From IMG/VR virus record IMGVR_UViG_2585427734_000004: a DNA stretch of 22,017 nt, one strand, 5' to 3'. Made by a program: the position numbers and the translations under genes. Positions 5,386-22,017 of the stretch are shown here, piece after piece (the first letter of the stretch is position 1; every line of letters begins with the position of its first letter). Under the pieces are notes generated by a model. It saw nothing but the letters and a program-made list of their open reading frames with translations, did not search any database and had not been told where the DNA came from. The stretch is from a virus (Duplodnaviria; Heunggongvirae; Uroviricota; Caudoviricetes).

Positions 5386-7796
5386 GCCATGCTGATATGA
5401 ACAACTGCAGCGGCTTTAACGAGGTCGCCGCAGCATTCTCATGGAACAGCCCGAAAAAGGCCATTAACCCTTATCTGGACCCGGCGGAAGTTGCGCCGGT
5501 TTCTGCGCTTTCAAACCTGATCACTCTGTACGCTGCCGATAACGAGCAGGAACAACTGCGCCGCGAGGCACTGAGTGATCAGGTCTGGGAGCGTTATTTC
5601 TTTAATGAATCCCGTGATCCTGTCCAACGCGAAATGGAGCAGGATAAGCTAATTAGCCGGGCAAAGCTGGCGCATGAGCAGCAGCGTTTTAATCCAGACA
5701 TGGCCATTCTGGCGGACGTCAACGCCCAGCCTTCCCATATCAGCAAGCCGCTGATGCAACGTATTAAATACTTCAGCAGCCTGGGCAGGCCAAAGGCTTA
5801 TTCCCGCTATTTGCGTGAGACGATTAAGCCATGCTTGGAACGACTGGAGCATGTACGCGACAGTCAGCTATCCACTTCTTTTCGCTTTATGGCAAGCCAT
5901 GAAGGGCTGGACGGCCTGCTGATCCTGCCTGAAATGAGTCAGGATCAGGTGAAACGCCTGTCCACCTTGGTAGCTGCGCATATGAGCATGTGCCTTGATA
6001 CAGCTTGTGGCGATTTGTATGCCACCGATGATGTTACGCCAGAAGAAATCCGCAAGACATGGGAAAAGGTGGCAGCGGAAACCCTGCGTCTGGATGTTAT
6101 CCCGCCTGCGTTTGAGCAACTCTGTCGGAAAAGAAACCGCCGTAAACCCGTGCCTTATGAACTCATTCCGGGTTCGCTGGCGCGTATGTTATGCGCCGAC
6201 TGGTGGTATCGGAAATTATGGAAGATGCGTTGCGAATGGCGGGAAGAGCAGTTGCGTGCTGTTTGCCTGGTCAGCAAAAAAGCATCTCCCTATGTCAGCT
6301 ATGAAGCTGTGATGCATAAACGTGAGCAGCGCCGTAAGTCGCTGGAGTTTTTCCGTTCTCATGAACTGGTGAACGAAGACGGCGACACGCTGGATATGGA
6401 AGACGTGGTAAACGCCAGCAGCAGCAACCCTGCGCATCGCCGCAATGAGATGATGGCCTGTGTTAAAGGTCTGGAGCTTATCGCGGAAATGCGTGGTGAC
6501 TGCGCCGTTTTCTACACCATCACCTGTCCGTCACGTTTCCATTCCACGCTAAATAACGGCAGGCCCAACCCGACCTGGACAAATGCGACGGTAAGACAAA
6601 GCAGTGATTATCTGGTCGGTATGTTTGCTGCATTTCGTAAGGCGATGCACAAAGCCGGATTACGCTGGTATGGCGTGCGGGTGGCTGAGCCGCATCATGA
6701 CGGTACAGTTCACTGGCACCTGTTGTGTTTTATGCGCAAAAAAGATCGCCGCGCCATTACTGCTTTGTTGCGTAAGTTTGCCATTCGTGAAGACCGCGAG
6801 GAGCTGGGTAATAACACGGAACCACGCTTTAAGTCTGAGCTGATAAACCCGCGCAAAGGTACGCCAACAAGCTACATCGCGAAATACATCAGTAAGAACA
6901 TTGACGGGCGTGGTCTGGCTGGCGAGATCAGCAAGGAAACGGGTAAATCCCTGCGTGATAACGCCGAATACGTTAATGTCTGGGCGTCTCTGCATCGTGT
7001 TCAGCAATTCCGCTTCTTTGGCATTCCGGGGCGTCAGGCTTACCGTGAACTGCGATTGCTGGCTGGTCAGGCGGCAAGGCAACAGGGTGACAAAAAAGCA
7101 GGTGCGCCGGTACTGGATAACCCGCGTCTTGATGCCATTCTGGCTGCTGCGGATGCTGGTTGTTTTGCCACCTACATCATGAAGCAGGGCGGCGTACTGG
7201 TTCCCCGTAAATATCACCTCATCAGAACCGCTTATGAAATCAACGAAGAGCCGACCGCCTATGGCGATCACGGCATTCGTATTTATGGCATCTGGTCACC
7301 CATTGCAGAGGGCAAGATCTGCACTCATGCAGTGAAGTGGAAAATGGTTCGTAAAGCCGTTGACGTTCAGGAGGCGGCAGCCGACCAGGGCGCTTGCGCC
7401 CCTTGGACTCGTGGCAATAACTGTCCCCTTGCTGAAAATTTGAACCAACAGGAGAAAGATAAATCAGCTGATGGGGACACTAGAACGGACATTACCCGCA
7501 TGGATGACAAGGAGTTGCACGATTACCTGCACAGTATGAGCAAAAAAGAGCGCCGGGAACTGGCAGCAAGGTTACGCCAGGTGAAGCCGAAAAGGCGTAA
7601 AGACTACAAACAGCGAATTACAGATCATCAGCATCAGCAGCTCGTCTATGAACTGAAGTCCAGAGGATTTGATGGCAGCGAGAAAGAGGTCGATTTACTC
7701 CTTCGCGGTGGCAGTATTCCGTCAGGAGCAGGCCTGCGTATCTTCTATCGGAACCAGCGTTTGCAGGAAGATGATAAGTGGCGGAACCTGTATTAA
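5382..7796 (+). CDS. A: Replication initiation protein gpA (rolling-circle, HUH endonuclease)
   Basis: ~804-aa ORF. HUH-like VHWHLL motif and paired tyrosines SYIAKYISK, as in P2 gpA; start ATG 5382 overlaps the dam stop. Confidence 0.85.
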
Positions 7797-8148: not shown

Positions 8149-8382
8149 ATGCGCATTGAAATAATGATCGATAAAGAGCAGAAGATTAGCCAGTCTACCC
8201 TGGACGCCCTTGAATCCGAGCTTTACCGCAATCTGCGCCCCCTGTATCCCAAAACGGTAATTCGCATTCGCAAAGGTAGCTCTAACGGTGTGGAACTGAC
8301 CGGACTGCAACTGGACGAAGAAAGAAAACAAGTGATGAAAATTATGCAGAAAGTGTGGGAAGACGACAGCTGGCTGCATTAA
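8149..8382 (+). CDS. DinI-like protein
   Basis: MRIEIMIDKEQ...LDALESEL...VWEDDSWLH follows the E. coli DinI pattern (MRIEVTIAK...IDALAGEL...TWESADDW); GAGGTGA RBS. Confidence 0.8.
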   Translation: MRIEIMIDKEQKISQSTLDALESELYRNLRPLYPKTVIRIRKGSSNGVELTGLQLDEERKQVMKIMQKVWEDDSWLH

Positions 8383-8516
8383 GAAACGTTGCTGGCGTCT
8401 GAACTTGCTTCTGGCGCCAGCAAGGTTGAACAACGAGCCGTGCGAGGCGTTAGCTCTGTGGTGCATGTCTATGCCGCATGAGATCGCATGATCGTTTGAG
8501 GATCGTTTTTGCTAAG

Positions 8517-8540
8517 GCCCGCCAGAACTGTCGGGCTTTT
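8517..8540 (+). terminator. Weak intrinsic terminator-like hairpin
   Basis: gcccg-N10-cgggc followed by TTTT; short stem, so low confidence. Confidence 0.3.
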
Positions 8541-8585
8541 GCGTAGATCATGCAGGTGCATGAAAACCACTACATAAAGCGGGCA

Positions 8586-8605
8586 GGCGTGGCGGGGATA
8601 CGAGC
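8586..8605. other. Possible cos-site remnant
   Basis: GGCGTGGCGGGGA matches, from memory, the first 13 nt of the 186/P2 19-nt cohesive end; the next 6 nt diverge. Not verified against a reference. Confidence 0.3.
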
Positions 8606-8612
8606 GCGCGCC

Positions 8613-8641
8613 TTGCCTTATATCTATTTGTTCATTAAAAT
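8613..8641 (+). promoter_or_regulatory. Putative sigma70 promoter for the retron ncRNA/RT operon
   Basis: TTGCCT (8613-8618), 17-bp spacer, TAAAAT (8636-8641). Confidence 0.3.
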
Positions 8642-8647
8642 CATTAT

Positions 8648-8850
8648 GCTCTTTAGTGTAGGAACATTGGTTCCAGCCGGGTGATTAGCCAGGCTTAAAT
8701 TTATTGTCCGGTTTAGGGTTGCGAAAGACACAGATTTCTCCTTCGCATCCCTGCCCGGGGCAGATATGCGAAGGAGAAATCTGTGTCTTTCGCTGTCTTT
8801 AGTGAAGAGTCAAAGCGCTATGTAAAGTTGCATAGCGCTTTGGTTTTAAG
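8648..8850 (+). ncRNA. Candidate retron msr-msd non-coding RNA
   Basis: Structured non-coding region immediately 5' of the RT: small hairpin ggaac-attg-gttcc (8661-8674), the 73-nt perfect palindrome (8721-8793) and a 12-bp-stem hairpin (8811-8842). Boundaries and the a1/a2 repeats are not resolved. Confidence 0.5.
8721..8793. repeat. Perfect 28-bp inverted repeat with nested ctgccc/gggcag palindrome (73-nt hairpin)
   Basis: 8721-8748 gcgaaagacacagatttctccttcgcat is the exact reverse complement of 8766-8793; read directly from the sequence. Confidence 0.9.
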
Positions 8851-8859
8851 AGGGGTTAT

Positions 8860-9795
8860 ATGCAACTAACTTCTAAAATTATCAGTAAGTTTAATTATAA
8901 TAGATTAGCTTTCCAATTACTTTTAAATGAGGCCCCCAAAAAATATAAAGTTTATTATATTCCTAAACGTGGCGCAGGTTTTCGGGTGATAGCTCAGCCG
9001 ACAAAGGAACTAAAAAACGTACAGAGATTTATAGTATCTTTGCTACAGCCAAAGCTGCCTGTTCATCATAAGGCAATGGCATATGAATATAAAAAAAGTA
9101 TTAAAGATAATGCATTGTTGCATAAAGATAATAATTATATTCTTAAAATGGATTTTCAGAACTTCTTTAATAAAATTAAACCTGATATATTTTTCTCGAA
9201 ACTTGAGAACACAGGGCTGAAATTGGATTCATTTGATGAGAACACCCTACGTAATTTGCTTTTTTGGCGTCCGGGAAAAAAGAGAAGTACAACGTTGATA
9301 TTAAGTGTAGGGGCGCCAAGCTCACCATTTATTAGTAATTTTGTTATGTATGACTTTGACAAGAGTCTTGATGATTGGTGCCGTAACAATGGTATCACTT
9401 ATTCAAGGTATGCAGATGATATAACTTTTTCAACTAATATTAAGGATATATTGTGCAGGGTTCCTAAGGTGGTAAAAAAAATGTTGTCGCTCCATGTTCC
9501 CGGTCTATCAATCAATGAATCTAAAACAATTTTTACATCGATGGCTCATAATCGGCACGTGACTGGTGTAACACTTACACCTCAGGGCAATTTATCAATT
9601 GGTCGCGATCGTAAAAGGATGCTGTTTGCAAAGATTCATAAATATTCTTTGGGACTCTTATCTTCCGAAGAAATAAATAAAACCAAAGGGATGATTGCGT
9701 TTGCAAATTATTTGGAGGGTGATTTTTTATTAAGGTTACAAAAAAAATATGGTTGTGAGTTAATAACTAAGTTCCTGATGGAAGGAAACAAATAA
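8860..9795 (+). CDS. Retron-type reverse transcriptase
   Basis: 311 aa; YADD catalytic motif (SRYADDITFS), upstream FQNFFNKI, RT-like GAPSSPFISN; AAGAGGGG RBS; AT-rich codon usage. Confidence 0.85.
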   Translation: MQLTSKIISKFNYNRLAFQLLLNEAPKKYKVYYIPKRGAGFRVIAQPTKELKNVQRFIVSLLQPKLPVHHKAMAYEYKKSIKDNALLHKDNNYILKMDFQNFFNKIKPDIFFSKLENTGLKLDSFDENTLRNLLFWRPGKKRSTTLILSVGAPSSPFISNFVMYDFDKSLDDWCRNNGITYSRYADDITFSTNIKDILCRVPKVVKKMLSLHVPGLSINESKTIFTSMAHNRHVTGVTLTPQGNLSIGRDRKRMLFAKIHKYSLGLLSSEEINKTKGMIAFANYLEGDFLLRLQKKYGCELITKFLMEGNK

Positions 9796-11429
9796 TGATA
9801 AATAAAATGAATTTAGAGACTTGCTATGTTGATTTTTTAGAGTTGGAATCACATGTGATAAACGAGGATTATTTGAAGGAGTCTGTTGAGCTTCAAAAGC
9901 TAATATCTACTTTAAATGAGAGTAAGTTTCATTTAAATAAAATAGGTATACATGATTTTAAACGGATAAGAGAACTACAGATTTCCTTAGAAGATGATTT
10001 GACTGTTTTTGTCGGGGATAACGGATTCGGTAAAAGCACTATTTTGGATGCAATAGCAATTGTTTTGAGTTGGTTGAGATCAAATATTGAAAAGGAGAGT
10101 AAGCCTGGTACTTATATTAAAAGCCATGAAGTTAATAACTCTGTTGATGTTGAGTATGCATCAATTGATGCAAATATAAAACTTAAGGACTTTAATACCA
10201 GTATTTTGATTACTAAAGCGAAAGAGGGGGCATATTATTCTAGAAATAATGAATTGTTGGAGGTAAAAAAACTTGCAAGTATTTATAGACTTGTGAATAA
10301 ATATGTTGATAATGCAAGCTTGCCTTTGATGGCATATTATTCTATTGCGCGTTCTTATATAGGCGGTGGGGTTGATAGGAAAAGAAAAAATGCTAAAACT
10401 AAAACTGTATGGTCAAAATTCGATGTGTATGATGAAATCGAGTTTGACAGAAATGATTTTACCGATTTTTTTCAATGGCTTGTATTTCTTCATAACAGAG
10501 CTTCACAAGAGAAATTGAGTGAGTCACAAACGACAATCAATGCGTTATTTTCAGATATTCAAAGTTTGAAAGCAACATTAACTCAACTATCTGCGATTGA
10601 TAATATTGATTCAACAGTTATAAAAGGTTTAGAGCTTTCGCTTAAAGAAAAATTGAACTACATGAAATCTCTGCAATCAGGAGAACATAAGTTTAATAAT
10701 GCAGTATCACTTTATGATAGTGTTATAAATACCATTCTAAAGTTCTTGCCTGAATTTCAGTGGATTAAGCTTGTTTATGGTGATGATGATTATAAGATTA
10801 TCCTTAAAAAAGGAGAGGTTGAATTAGATGTTCAACAGTTGTCTCAAGGTGAGAAAACTATATTTACTTTAGTTGGTGATTTGGCTCGACGTTTAATTTT
10901 ACTTAATCCAAATTTATCTAATCCTCTATTGGGATATGGGATTGTTTTAATTGATGAAATTGATTTGCATTTGCATCCGCAATGGCAACAGACAATTATT
11001 GAGCGTTTGACATCTACATTCCCAAATGTTCAATTTGTAGTTACTACCCATAGCCCACAGGTTTTATCCACTGTTAGCTCTCGTTCAGTGCGTATTCTAC
11101 AGGAAGTGGAAGTAGATGGTGTTAATGATTTGATAGTGTCTCACCCCGACTATCAAATAAAAGGTGTTAGTAATCAGGATGCACTTTTATATGGAATGAG
11201 AACTGATCCTATACCCTCTACTAAAGAAAATGGTTGGCTTGAAGAATATAAAAAATTGGTTGAGCTTAATCGTTATAGCAGTGACGAGGCTCTTTTGTTA
11301 AGAGAAAAAGTTATTAAACATTTCGGATTAGACCATCCTTTAGTTCAAGAGTGTGATGATCTTATATCTGTTTTGGAGTTCAAAAATAAGATAAATCAGC
11401 ACTTTTCTGGAAGTAAGGATGTAAAATGA
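9795..11429 (+). CDS. ABC-type ATPase (Septu PtuA-like) retron effector component
   Basis: Walker A GDNGFGKST, signature LSQGEK, Walker B VLIDEIDLHLHP, H-loop VVTTHSP, with a long helical insert; start overlaps the RT stop. Confidence 0.8.
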   Translation: MINKMNLETCYVDFLELESHVINEDYLKESVELQKLISTLNESKFHLNKIGIHDFKRIRELQISLEDDLTVFVGDNGFGKSTILDAIAIVLSWLRSNIEKESKPGTYIKSHEVNNSVDVEYASIDANIKLKDFNTSILITKAKEGAYYSRNNELLEVKKLASIYRLVNKYVDNASLPLMAYYSIARSYIGGGVDRKRKNAKTKTVWSKFDVYDEIEFDRNDFTDFFQWLVFLHNRASQEKLSESQTTINALFSDIQSLKATLTQLSAIDNIDSTVIKGLELSLKEKLNYMKSLQSGEHKFNNAVSLYDSVINTILKFLPEFQWIKLVYGDDDYKIILKKGEVELDVQQLSQGEKTIFTLVGDLARRLILLNPNLSNPLLGYGIVLIDEIDLHLHPQWQQTIIERLTSTFPNVQFVVTTHSPQVLSTVSSRSVRILQEVEVDGVNDLIVSHPDYQIKGVSNQDALLYGMRTDPIPSTKENGWLEEYKKLVELNRYSSDEALLLREKVIKHFGLDHPLVQECDDLISVLEFKNKINQHFSGSKDVK

Positions 11430-12109
11430 AATATCTATCTAGGCAAATGCCAGGGCCTTCCGTTCTTAATAAATTTGACTATAGGAGGGATGATTGGAAT
11501 TCCCTATCATCAAATGATAAAAAAGAAATATGGGAAGAAATAATAAAAATGCAAGGTAAATTATGTGCTTATTGCGAGAAAAAAATAGAGCATCATAAAA
11601 GTGGTGACAAAAATAAAGTTGAGAGGCATATTGAGCATTTTTACAGGAAAAGTTATTACAAAAATTTAACTTTCGAGTGGTCTAATTTGTTTGGCTCATG
11701 TGGTGAGCCGCAAAGGTGTGGGTTTTATAAGGATAAGCAAAAATATAACGATGATGATTTAATTAAAGCTGATAGACAAAATCCAGATGTTTTTTTCCAT
11801 TTTTTGGAAAATGGTGATGTTCATATTAGAGAAGGCTTGAATGAGAAAGAACACAAAATGGCAGAGGTTACGTTAAGAGTATTTAACTTAAACCCGTCCT
11901 CAGGAGGAGTCAAGGCGGAAAGAAGACGTGCAATAGAATTAAGCATGACATTAATAAAGGAACTGGTCGGATGTGCATCTCAGCTTATTGAATCAGGATG
12001 TGAAATTGAAGATGTTAGATCTATGGTCTTTGATGAGTTTAAAAAGAATGTAAAAGATAGATGCTTTACCACTGCGATAAAGCATGTTTTTGAGAATAGA
12101 ATGCCTTAA
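11426..12109 (+). CDS. HNH endonuclease (PtuB-like) retron effector component
   Basis: CAYCEKK...HIEHF HNH-like Cys/His motifs; ATGA overlap with the ATPase stop. Confidence 0.75.
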   Translation: MKYLSRQMPGPSVLNKFDYRRDDWNSLSSNDKKEIWEEIIKMQGKLCAYCEKKIEHHKSGDKNKVERHIEHFYRKSYYKNLTFEWSNLFGSCGEPQRCGFYKDKQKYNDDDLIKADRQNPDVFFHFLENGDVHIREGLNEKEHKMAEVTLRVFNLNPSSGGVKAERRRAIELSMTLIKELVGCASQLIESGCEIEDVRSMVFDEFKKNVKDRCFTTAIKHVFENRMP

Positions 12110-21759: not shown

Positions 21760-22017
21760 TCAGGCGTCCAGATTTTCTTTCACCCATGCAGCAAAATCGG
21801 TATAGCCGCCGATATGTTGCTGATCGACAAAAATCTGCGGCACGGTTTCTACGGGTTTACCTGCCTTTTGTTGTAGATCTTCTTTAGTGATCCCTTCCGC
21901 ACGAATATCTACATACTGATACTGAAAATCATCGCGTTCATTGCTCAATTTCTCAGCCAGATCTTTTGCACGCACACAGTAAGGGCAACCCGGACGACCA
22001 AAAATAACGGTTTGCAT
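21760..22017 (-). CDS. grxA: Glutaredoxin 1
   Basis: 85-aa protein with CPYC active site (MQTVIFGRPGCPYCVRAK...). Confidence 0.9.
   Translation of the reverse strand: MQTVIFGRPGCPYCVRAKDLAEKLSNERDDFQYQYVDIRAEGITKEDLQQKAGKPVETVPQIFVDQQHIGGYTDFAAWVKENLDA

What the first reader, a model, noticed from the sequence alone, without database searches (positions are those of the whole stretch)
8721..8793. 73-nt perfect palindrome upstream of the RT, with no recognisable a1/a2 inverted repeats
Two 28-nt arms are exact reverse complements, enclosing a second palindrome (ctgccc g gggcag). Retron msd stems are usually long but imperfect, so a perfect 28-bp stem is unusual. I could not find the a1/a2 inverted repeats expected to flank msr-msd. 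Instead a 9-bp direct repeat tctttagtg occurs at 8650-8658 and 8796-8804, on either side of the element. The ncRNA organisation may therefore be non-canonical, or the palindrome may have another role (for example a recombination or cruciform site).
Basis: seen in the sequence. Interest (0 to 1): 0.55.

Follow-up and report, generated by a model that had tools for sequence, protein, structure and literature searches.

The report
Known retron's msDNA hairpin template

Summary
The palindrome is real. Arms 8721-8748 and 8766-8793 are perfect 28-nt complements. They are followed by a CC/AT mismatch and a 6-bp tip, so the full 73 nt is near-perfect, not perfect. It is the msd (DNA-template) part of a canonical retron ncRNA (about 8648-8810), directly upstream of an RT / PtuA-like ATPase / PtuB-like HNH operon, i.e. 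a type I-A retron in a P2-like prophage.

The region is 100% identical to E. coli FORC_082, and all three proteins are identical to PDB 9n69. George et al. 2025 (Nat Commun 16:8459) showed this retron makes a ~90-nt msDNA "harpoon" that scaffolds four ATPases and the HNH. Phage flap nucleases degrade the msDNA, which releases tRNA-Ser cleavage.

The a1/a2 repeats exist. GCUCUUUA (8648-8655) pairs with UGAAGAGU (8803-8810), 8 bp with two G·U wobbles, and the priming G is 8656. Sixteen relatives share this stem with covariation, and Ec78 also has 8-nt repeats. Long perfect stems (14-30 bp) are the norm in this family, and 23 of 26 aligned stem pairs covary.

The 9-nt direct repeat is real. Its two copies are different functional pieces: a1 plus the priming G, and the template for the msDNA 5' end. 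The palindrome never occurs away from this RT.

Verdict: already known, low interest.

The parts
8613..8641 (+). Candidate sigma-70 promoter of the ncRNA/retron operon (-35 TTGCCT 8613-8618, 17-nt spacer, -10 TAAAAT 8636-8641). It would start transcription around 8648-8649.
   Evidence: only promoter-like site in 8380-8900, 9/12 matches. Position fits the a1 start. Consensus match only, not shown experimentally here.
8648..8810 (+). Retron ncRNA (msr-msd), from a1 to a2.
   Evidence: Rfam msr RF00170 at 8648-8712 (45.9 bits, E 8.7e-7) and STnc400 RF02058 at 8714-8851 (73 bits, E 5e-14). MFE fold. Homologous ncRNAs in 16 other loci.
8648..8655 (+). a1 inverted repeat, GCUCUUUA.
   Evidence: Pairs with 8803-8810. 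Columns 1-8/183-190 of A4 are 98.5% paired, with 3 pairs changed on both sides.
8656..8656 (+). Priming (branching) guanosine. It equals G8 of George et al. if the RNA is numbered from C8649 (A7 = A8655).
   Evidence: Invariant UUUAG in all 17 ncRNAs. PMC12475279 Fig. 2 legend names A7 and priming G8.
8661..8674 (+). Variable msr stem-loop (GGAAC-AUUG-GUUCC). The equivalent stem-loop I is removed from the mature complex in Ec78.
   Evidence: fold. Length-variable region in A4. Ec78 processing: PMC12819146.
8675..8695 (+). Conserved msr stem-loop AGCCGGGUGAUUAGCCAGGCU, the handle held by the RT thumb.
   Evidence: 100% paired in 17 sequences, with one covarying pair UA/CG 9:8. Role taken from PMC12475279 (SL-1) and PMC12673091 (SL2) by homology.
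8696..8705 (+). 10-nt linker/clamp (UAAAUUUAUU), nearly invariant.
   Evidence: Invariant columns in A2/A4. Assignment to the paper's 'clamp' is my inference.
8706..8801 (-). Predicted msDNA (the cDNA, i.e. minus-strand sequence): 5'-TAAAGACA-[hairpin]-AACCCTAAACCGGAC-3', 96 nt, or 92 nt after loss of the 5' TAAA.
   Evidence: The start follows the retron rule that copying begins 5' of the opposing G. The end is set by homology to Eco7/Ec78, where termination is 10 nt 3' of the conserved stem-loop, at bG+50. DNA fold -41.1 kcal/mol, z -14. The paper reports a ~90-nt msDNA. Exact ends are inferred.
8721..8793 (+). The finding: msd palindrome. 5' arm 8721-8748, 2x2 mismatch 8749-8750/8764-8765, tip hairpin 8751-8763, 3' arm 8766-8793.
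   Evidence: 23 of 26 aligned stem pairs have compensatory changes.
8796..8804 (+). 3' copy of the direct repeat UCUUUAGUG: the template of the msDNA 5' end (UCUUUA gives TAAAGA), the opposing G8802, and the first two bases of a2.
   Evidence: (u)gUCUUUA-G precedes a2 in all P2-borne relatives and diverges in distant ones. Ec78 msDNA loses dT1-dA4.
8803..8810 (+). a2 inverted repeat, UGAAGAGU (relatives: UAAAGAG[C]).
8810..8843 (+). Hairpin between a2 and the RT start (15 bp, then GUUUU). Present in nearly all relatives with unrelated sequences. Candidate leaky terminator or 3'-end stabiliser.
   Evidence: (I3). Part of the Rfam STnc400 model. Function not tested.
8860..9795 (+). Retron reverse transcriptase, 311 aa (NALLH 84-88, YADD 184-187, VTG 234-236). 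SD AAGAGGGG at 8848-8855.
   Evidence: PADLOC RT_I-A 4.9e-131. Pfam RVT_1. 311/311 identical to PDB 9n69_E.
9795..11429 (+). PtuA-like SMC-family ATPase (544 aa) that binds along the msDNA hairpin.
   Evidence: PADLOC PtuA 2.3e-193 / ATPase_I-A. Identical over residues 2-544 to 9n69_A.
11426..12109 (+). PtuB-like HNH nuclease (227 aa), the effector.
   Evidence: PADLOC PtuB 6e-118 / HNH_I-A. Matches 9n69_F over 1-227, 522 bits.

Best explanation
The palindrome is the msd region of the ncRNA of a canonical type I-A retron, specifically the E. coli FORC82 retron carried in the cargo hotspot of a P2-like prophage. Likely mechanism, step by step. (1) The ncRNA (about 8648-8810) is transcribed from its own promoter. 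(2) Its ends pair (a1 8648-8655 with a2 8803-8810), which places G8656 at the RT active site. (3) The RT holds the conserved msr stem-loop (8675-8695) and primes from the 2'-OH of G8656. (4) It copies the template from A8801 through the 3' arm, tip and 5' arm, and stops near G8706. (5) RNase H removes the template. (6) The cDNA folds on itself into a hairpin of about 34 bp, the 'harpoon'. (7) As in Ec78, the first four nucleotides (TAAA) and the branch are removed. (8) The double-stranded shaft is bound, mainly through electrostatic contacts, by two dimers of the PtuA-like ATPase, which hold the HNH nuclease inactive. (9) Phage flap nucleases (T3 exonuclease, T5 D15, T7) degrade the msDNA. (10) The released nuclease cleaves tRNA-Ser, which arrests translation and aborts the infection. 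Shown experimentally on this exact sequence by George et al. 2025: complex composition, ~90-nt msDNA, ~40-nt RNA, the triggers and the tRNA-Ser target. Shown here: identity to that system, the a1/a2 stem, and covariation. Inferred here: the exact window coordinates of priming, termination and debranching.
For: Identity: window 8600-8870 is 100% identical to E. coli FORC_082. RT, ATPase and HNH are identical to PDB 9n69 chains E, A and F. The RT residues mutated in the paper (S217, N219, E220) are at those positions in this protein. Family: PADLOC RT_I-A, PtuA/ATPase_I-A and PtuB/HNH_I-A. RNA: msr and STnc400 Rfam hits abut at 8712/8714. The MFE fold gives a1/a2, two msr stem-loops and the long hairpin. 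Comparative: in 17 ncRNAs, 96.7% of cells are paired against 74.8% when shuffled (0/500) and 39-45% when slid. 23 of 26 msd pairs and 3 of 8 a1/a2 pairs show compensatory changes. DNA-level selection: the msd helix has 10 C·A (which are G·T in the cDNA) against 1 G·U. The RNA-only helices have 11 G·U against 1 C·A. Fisher p = 1e-4, though cells are not phylogenetically independent. Linkage: every exact occurrence of the arm in the E. coli, viral and metagenome collections lies upstream of the same RT. Literature: PMC12475279; Ec78/Eco7 architecture in PMC12819146 and PMC12673091.
Against: No evidence contradicts it. Caveats: both Rfam hits in the window fall below the curated gathering scores (45.9 vs 52; 73 vs 80). 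The msDNA ends, priming base and debranching site in window coordinates are assigned by homology and were not read from the deposited nucleic-acid chains, which these tools cannot access. The window as a whole is not identical to the FORC_082 prophage; the best complete-genome match covers 92% at 97.8%. Only the retron cassette is identical.
Confidence: 0.97

Rival explanations
1. The palindrome acts in double-stranded chromosomal or prophage DNA as a cruciform or recombination site, for example a cargo-exchange or integration site in the P2 hotspot, independently of the RT.
For: A 73-bp near-perfect palindrome could in principle extrude a cruciform. It sits in a variable cargo region of P2-like prophages. 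One relative (L022) carries a centre-deleted version of the L015-type palindrome, which shows such palindromes can be unstable.
Against: The arm sequence is never found away from the RT. Relatives in unrelated genomic contexts (Vibrio, Shewanella, Cellvibrio, methanotroph MAGs) keep a stem of different sequence at the same place in the ncRNA. The mismatch spectrum is strand-asymmetric, C·A on the RNA-sense strand and so G·T on the cDNA strand. A symmetric cruciform would not produce that asymmetry. The cargo junction lies upstream, near 8611, where the conserved P2 sequence ends, not at the palindrome. msDNA from this sequence has been purified and imaged (PMC12475279).
Confidence: 0.01
2. The ncRNA is non-canonical. 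It lacks a1/a2, and the 9-nt direct repeat provides an alternative way to position the primer.
For: No long perfect inverted repeat flanks msr-msd. The direct repeat TCTTTAGTG is over-represented, 3 copies against 0.14 expected.
Against: An 8-bp a1/a2 stem with two wobbles is present and closes the MFE structure. The same stem, mostly CUCUUUA/UAAAGAG, is in all 17 ncRNAs with compensatory changes. Ec78 has 8-nt IRa1/IRa2. George et al. describe the stem formed by the 5' and 3' ends (SL-3) with priming G8 for this very RNA. The 3' copy of the direct repeat is not conserved in distant relatives (UCUGAG, UCGAUG, UUAAGG), whereas a1/a2 is.
Confidence: 0.01
3. The hairpin functions only as RNA, for instance as a regulatory sRNA (Rfam STnc400) or as a transcription attenuator for the RT operon, and is not used as a DNA template.
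For: The best Rfam hit over the palindrome is the 'sRNA' family STnc400. In Salmonella, STnc400 was detected as a stable RNA of about 55 nt with a 190-nt precursor.
Against: STnc400 maps between STM3844 and STM3845, directly upstream of the Salmonella St85/Sen2 retron genes (the gene identities are from my own knowledge). So that 'sRNA' is itself a retron ncRNA. The stem has almost no G·U pairs but tolerates C·A, the opposite of an RNA-selected helix. msDNA of about 90 nt was purified from this system.
Confidence: 0.01

Closest known systems
Type I-A retron of E. coli FORC82 (George et al., Nat Commun 2025;16:8459; PDB 9n69, 9n6b, 9n6c)
   Same: It is the same element. The ncRNA region is 100% identical and RT, ATPase and HNH are identical. 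The gene order and the P2-like prophage context are also the same.
   Different: Nothing within the retron cassette. The surrounding prophage in the window differs somewhat from the sequenced genomes that carry the cassette.
Retron Ec78 / Retron-Eco7 (type I-A; PDB 9l7p, 9kjx, 9vhe and others)
   Same: Same architecture: short (8-nt) a1/a2, priming G after UUA, a conserved msr stem-loop plus 10-nt linker, a long msd hairpin, and PtuA/PtuB effectors. The msDNA is debranched with loss of dT1-dA4, and T5 D15 acts as a trigger.
   Different: The RT match is much weaker than the identical 9n69 match (288 bits against 698 bits). The Ec78 stem is 22 bp and its msDNA 77 nt, against 28+6 bp and a predicted 96 nt here. 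Ec78 targets tRNA-Tyr and FORC82 targets tRNA-Ser.
Retron Ec83 / Eco4 and Vibrio cholerae Vc95-type retrons (type I-A)
   Same: Same operon type and ncRNA plan. The V. cholerae ATCC 14035 locus L011 has CUCUUUA-G ... a 30-bp perfect stem ... UAAAGAG.
   Different: The stem sequence is different and the proteins are diverged (for L011; Ec83 RT 9e8z_H 269 bits).
Retron Ec86 / Eco1 (type II-A3)
   Same: A related msr, and the same priming and termination logic.
   Different: From my own knowledge, Ec86 has longer a1/a2 (about 12 nt), an imperfect msd stem, and a branched msDNA that is retained. The papers report a different effector (an N-glycosidase that hydrolyses NAD(P)+) and filament assembly.
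Rfam RF02058 STnc400 and RF00170 msr
   Same: The two models together tile the ncRNA: msr 8648-8712, STnc400 8714-8851.
   Different: Both hits are below the gathering thresholds in the window. STnc400 is catalogued as an sRNA, but it corresponds to a retron msd plus the downstream hairpin.

Membership tests
Retron (bacterial msDNA-producing retroelement) | RT with the retron-specific motifs NAxxH and VTG plus catalytic YADD | tested here: met
   NALLH 84-88, YADD 184-187 and VTG 234-236, read from the translated RT. Pfam RVT_1 3.7e-30.
Retron (bacterial msDNA-producing retroelement) | ncRNA with inverted repeats a1/a2 flanking msr-msd | tested here: met
   8648-8655 pairs with 8803-8810 (8 bp, 2 G·U). 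98.5% paired across 17 homologues, with 3 covarying pairs.
Retron (bacterial msDNA-producing retroelement) | Conserved priming guanosine immediately 3' of a1 | tested here: met
   G8656 lies in the invariant UUUAG. It corresponds to the published A7/G8. The chemistry (2'-5' branch) is not testable here.
Retron (bacterial msDNA-producing retroelement) | Match to the curated msr covariance model (RF00170) at gathering score | tested here: inconclusive
   45.9 bits against a cut-off of 52 in the window, E 8.7e-7. 10 of the 11 relatives scanned pass the cut-off at the homologous position; E. coli N10 scores 47.0.
Retron (bacterial msDNA-producing retroelement) | msd stem-loop that templates a hairpin msDNA | tested here: met
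   28+6 bp hairpin. 23 of 26 pairs covary. Mismatch spectrum indicates DNA-level selection.
Retron (bacterial msDNA-producing retroelement) | Actual production of msDNA | not testable with these tools
   Reported for the identical cassette: a ~90-nt msDNA on urea-PAGE and in cryo-EM (PMC12475279).
Type I-A retron (retron-Septu: RT + PtuA ATPase + PtuB HNH) | RT of clade I-A followed by an SMC/AAA_15-type ATPase and an HNH nuclease in one operon | tested here: met
   PADLOC RT_I-A 4.9e-131, PtuA 2.3e-193 / ATPase_I-A 1.1e-151, PtuB 6e-118 / HNH_I-A 5.2e-57. The ORFs overlap or abut at 9795 and 11426-11429.
Type I-A retron (retron-Septu: RT + PtuA ATPase + PtuB HNH) | Short (~8-nt) a1/a2, with a TAAA-type msDNA 5' end that is removed on debranching | tested here: inconclusive
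   The short a1/a2 is met. The template UUUA 8798-8801 predicts a dT-dA-dA-dA 5' end, as in Ec78 dT1-dA4. Debranching itself is not testable here.
E. coli FORC82 retron (PDB 9n69) | Sequence identity of the ncRNA region and all three proteins | tested here: met

The most novel reading that the evidence does not exclude
The most novel reading not excluded concerns the flanks, not the palindrome. First, the hairpin immediately 3' of a2 (8810-8843) may be a leaky intrinsic terminator or 3'-end stabiliser. It is conserved in position and structure but not in sequence in nearly all type I-A relatives, and it is often followed by a U-tract. It could set a high ncRNA to RT/effector ratio. Second, the 3' copy of the 'direct repeat' may be conserved because it encodes the TAAA(G) 5' leader needed for ExoVII-dependent debranching. 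In addition, the strand-asymmetric mismatch spectrum (C·A tolerated, G·U excluded) could serve as a general sequence-only test of whether a retron stem is selected as DNA or as RNA.
Probability: 0.4. Interest if true: 0.2.

Novelty: already known. Interest (0 to 1): 0.08.

Why it matters
For the scan, this closes the item. The palindrome is the msd template of a retron whose structure, triggers and effector activity were published in 2025, so it offers no new biology. The practical lessons are for annotation. (1) In type I-A retrons the a1/a2 stem is only 7-8 bp and can contain G·U wobbles, so a search for perfect inverted repeats misses it. (2) A long, perfectly paired msd stem is normal for this type, because the stem works as a double-stranded DNA scaffold for SMC-like ATPases. 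(3) The Rfam 'sRNA' family STnc400 is in fact a retron msd plus its downstream hairpin. The cassette is rare, present in 4 of 5426 complete E. coli genomes, and occupies a P2 prophage cargo hotspot.

Tried and rejected
1. Phage (INPHARED) and plasmid (PLSDB) collections searched with the ncRNA or palindrome gave no match, so they added no context.
2. The Rfam miRNA hits over the palindrome (MIR7533, mir-2068, mir-254) are generic long-hairpin matches far below their gathering scores. I rejected them.
3. My first automatic a2 finder picked spurious sites inside the stem for L011, L009 and L027, and the downstream terminator hairpin for L014. I corrected these by hand before building alignment A4, so one search's total counts should not be used; one search has the correct ones.
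4. I considered that the msDNA 5' end (TAAAGA) might pair with a1 (UCUUUA) after synthesis. I rejected this on geometry, because the DNA is attached to the G immediately 3' of a1 and no loop is possible.
5. I considered that the 3' repeat copy forms an alternative hairpin with a2 (UCUU/AAGA). It is not favoured in the MFE or centroid structures, and I did not pursue it.
6. The paper's supplementary files are not held, so I could not read the exact published ncRNA and msDNA boundaries.
7. The third TCTTTAGTG at 21881-21889 has no retron context and is probably chance.

Full report
OBSERVATION. Positions 8721-8748 (GCGAAAGACACAGATTTCTCCTTCGCAT) and 8766-8793 are exact reverse complements (28 nt). 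Between them lie CC (8749-8750), the small palindrome CTGCCC-g-GGGCAG (8751-8763), and AT (8764-8765). CC faces AT, so the 73 nt as a whole is a near-perfect palindrome (36-nt arms, 94%), not a perfect one. It is the longest inverted repeat in the window and far beyond chance. A perfect 28-bp short-spaced inverted repeat is expected about 1e-11 times in 22 kb by my arithmetic. The ncRNA folds with z = -11.6 as RNA, and the predicted cDNA folds with z = -14.0 as DNA. The direct repeat TCTTTAGTG at 8650-8658 and 8796-8804 is also real, with 3 copies in the window against 0.14 expected.

CONTEXT. Immediately downstream are three co-oriented, overlapping or abutting ORFs:
- an RT (8860-9795; PADLOC RT_I-A 4.9e-131; Pfam RVT_1)
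- a PtuA-like SMC/AAA_15 ATPase (9795-11429)
- a PtuB-like HNH nuclease (11426-12109)

This is the type I-A (retron-Septu) operon. It lies between the replication gene A / DinI-like genes and the portal/scaffold genes of a P2-like prophage, which is integrated near ybjL.

IDENTITY. Window 8600-8870 is 100% identical to E. coli FORC_082, and only 4 of 5426 complete E. coli genomes carry it at 99% or more. The RT is 311/311 identical to PDB 9n69 chain E. The ATPase is identical to chain A and the HNH to chain F. [quoted passage not shown] The RT residues they mutated (S217, N219, E220) sit at exactly those positions in this protein.

That paper reports the following for this sequence:
- a ~90-nt msDNA and a ~40-nt RNA co-purifying with RT, four ATPase subunits and the HNH
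[quoted passage not shown] - T3 exonuclease, T5 D15 and the T7 flap nuclease degrading the msDNA and activating the HNH
- the HNH cleaving tRNA-Ser
- truncation of the hairpin tip having no effect on defence

ANATOMY IN WINDOW COORDINATES (my assignments).
- Promoter: the only sigma-70-like site in 8380-8900 is TTGCCT-17-TAAAAT (8613-8641), which would start transcription at about 8648.
- Rfam: msr is placed at 8648-8712 and STnc400 at 8714-8851. Both are below gathering score but have E of 9e-7 and 5e-14.
- MFE structure of 8649-8810: a closing stem CUCUUUA (8649-8655) / UGAAGAG (8803-8809), extendable by G8648·U8810; unpaired G8656; stem-loops at 8661-8674 and 8675-8695; and the long hairpin. 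Numbering from C8649 makes A8655 = A7 and G8656 = G8, as published.
- G8802 is the 'opposing G' described for Eco7.
- Copying therefore starts at A8801.
- In Eco7/Ec78, termination lies 10 nt beyond the conserved msr stem-loop, at bG+50. Here that is G8706, the invariant G of UUAUUG.
- The predicted msDNA is the complement of 8706-8801 (96 nt): 5'-TAAAGACA, then the 73-nt hairpin, then AACCCTAAACCGGAC-3'. This is compatible with the reported ~90 nt.
- Ec78 msDNA loses dT1-dA4 on debranching, and the template here predicts the same TAAA.

The a1/a2 stem and the covariation are tested. The exact priming, termination and debranching coordinates are inferred by homology.

THE 'MISSING' a1/a2 AND THE DIRECT REPEAT. 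I collected sixteen further distinct ncRNAs upstream of related RTs, from three sources:
- E. coli N10 and AREA_497
- eight genome or MAG loci including V. cholerae, Shewanella and Cellvibrio
- six IMG/VR viral contigs

The msr model scores above its gathering cut-off in 10 of the 11 relatives scanned. All share C-Y-C-U-U-U-A-G at the 5' end and U-A-A-A-G-R-G after the hairpin. In the 17-sequence alignment A4 the a1/a2 helix is 98.5% paired, with both-sided changes at three pairs: GC/UA at 1:190, CG/UA at 2:189 and UA/CG at 3:188. Ec78 likewise has only 8-nt IRa1/IRa2. In this window a2 reads UGAAGAGU instead of UAAAGAGC, so two of the eight pairs are G·U. That, plus the short length, explains why a reader looking for exact complements missed it.

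The direct repeat is made of two different functional pieces. The 5' copy is a1 plus the priming G. The 3' copy is the template for the first six msDNA bases, plus the opposing G and the first two bases of a2. The 3' copy is conserved ((u)gUCUUUA-G) in the P2-borne E. coli-type elements but not in distant relatives (UCUGA-G, UCGAU-G, UUAAG-G). It is therefore not a universal requirement, and it does not replace a1/a2.

IS A PERFECT STEM UNUSUAL? Not in this family. Most full-length relatives have perfect Watson-Crick runs of 14-30 bp, for example 30 bp in V. cholerae and 28-29 bp in L010, L009 and L024; L026 has no perfect run that long, and L014 and L022 carry truncated msd stems. Only the base of the stem (GCGRAAG...CUUYCGC) is conserved in sequence. 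The interior differs completely between lineages yet stays complementary: 23 of 26 aligned pairs show both-sided changes and none varies on one side only. For the whole structure, 96.7% of cells are paired, against 74.8% for column shuffles (0/500) and 39-45% when partners are slid by 1-3 columns.

One further signature fits the stem acting as DNA. In the two RNA-only helices (a1/a2 and the msr stem-loop) the non-Watson-Crick cells are 11 G·U and 1 C·A. In the msd helix they are 1 G·U and 10 C·A (Fisher p = 1e-4). Restricting to the basal 23 pairs gives 0 against 6 (p = 4e-4). A C·A in the RNA is a G·T wobble in the cDNA, whereas a G·U in the RNA would be a C·A mismatch in the cDNA. The cells are not phylogenetically independent; I count about six independent events. 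The signal is therefore supportive, not decisive.

LINKAGE TEST. Exact scans for the variable part of the arm (GACACAGATTTCTCCTTCGCAT) found 5 viral and 2 metagenome contigs. In each, the palindrome lies at the same 139-nt offset upstream of the same RT. Six loci show at least 99.8% nucleotide identity, and the seventh locus is cut short. There are no hits in plasmids or in deposited phage genomes. Close copies differ by only two SNPs, both outside the palindrome (8647 T>C; 8834 A>G, which keeps the downstream hairpin paired through G·U).

RIVALS. A chromosomal cruciform or recombination role is not supported, for four reasons: the strict RT linkage, the conservation of a stem (not a sequence) in unrelated genomic contexts, the strand-asymmetric mismatch spectrum, and the published msDNA. 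A priming mechanism without a1/a2 is contradicted by the covarying stem. An RNA-only 'sRNA' role rests on the Rfam name STnc400. But STnc400 maps between STM3844 and STM3845 in Salmonella, directly upstream of what I know from memory to be the St85/Sen2 retron genes. That family is therefore itself a retron msd.

NOVELTY AND SCORE. The element, its product, its structure and its mechanism are already published for this exact sequence. The remaining open points are minor: the role of the conserved hairpin between a2 and the RT start, and whether the conserved UCUUUA-G template specifies debranching. Interest is low.

Noticed in passing
window 8810-8843 (and the homologous position in L015, L021, L023, L024, L026, L011, L010, L009, L008, L027, L013, L003, L007, L014): A stable hairpin sits 0-12 nt after a2 in nearly every type I-A relative. 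The sequences are unrelated and about half are followed by a U-rich tract (window GUUUU; L010 UUUUUU; L013 UUUAUUUUUU; L014 UUUUU). It looks like a leaky intrinsic terminator or a 3'-end stabiliser between the ncRNA and the RT, and it is part of the Rfam STnc400 model. Its function is untested.
   Followed up: partly
window 8714-8851; Rfam RF02058: The Rfam family 'STnc400, gammaproteobacterial sRNA' matches the msd plus downstream hairpin here and in V. cholerae, Shewanella and E. coli N10. The original Salmonella STnc400 lies between STM3844 and STM3845, upstream of the St85/Sen2 retron. The family therefore appears to be a retron msd catalogued as an sRNA.
   Followed up: partly
A4 columns 93-118/147-172 (window 8721-8746/8768-8793): The mismatch spectrum is strand-asymmetric. 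The msd stem has 10 C·A and 1 G·U, while the RNA-only helices have 11 G·U and 1 C·A (Fisher p 1e-4). This fits selection on the cDNA hairpin and could be a sequence-only test of DNA-level versus RNA-level function of retron stems.
   Followed up: yes
L022:1119-1146 versus L015:3081-3156; L014:1392-1412; L025 hairpin tip: There are palindrome variants. L022 carries a centre-deleted msd (GCGAAAGCGACGAATTCGTCGCTTTCGC), which looks like L015's stem collapsed between its two GAATTC sites. L014 has only an 8-bp msd stem. L025 has NN at the hairpin tip. These may be real deletions of an unstable palindrome or assembly artefacts.
   Followed up: no
L001:5213 (E. coli N10, WP_235835336.1): The annotated RT start (327 aa) lies right after a2, inside what is the conserved downstream hairpin in the near-identical L021/L028 ncRNAs. 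The true start is probably the ATG about 48 nt downstream, which gives the usual 311 aa.
   Followed up: no
window ~8560-8611: The conserved P2-backbone sequence (CATGAAAACC...GGGGATACGAGCGCGCG) ends at about 8611 in the window and in L001, L021-L023, L025, L026 and L028. After that point the retron cargo, including its own promoter, diverges. This marks the left junction of the cargo hotspot. Other prophages at the same chromosomal site carry other cargo, for example a P-loop NTPase in strain LR-50.
   Followed up: partly
window 5506-5529 / 5570-5593: A 24-nt inverted repeat (83% complementary, 40-nt spacer) lies inside the gene A (replication endonuclease) ORF. It might relate to the P2-type origin, which from memory lies within gene A. 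I did not examine it.
   Followed up: no
window 21881-21889: A third exact copy of TCTTTAGTG lies far from the retron. It has no evident relation to the retron and is probably chance.
   Followed up: no
window 8647 and 8834 (L016, L017): Two IMG/VR copies with an RT of identical protein sequence differ only by T8647C (just 5' of a1) and A8834G. The second keeps the downstream hairpin paired as U·G. The palindrome itself is invariant.
   Followed up: yes
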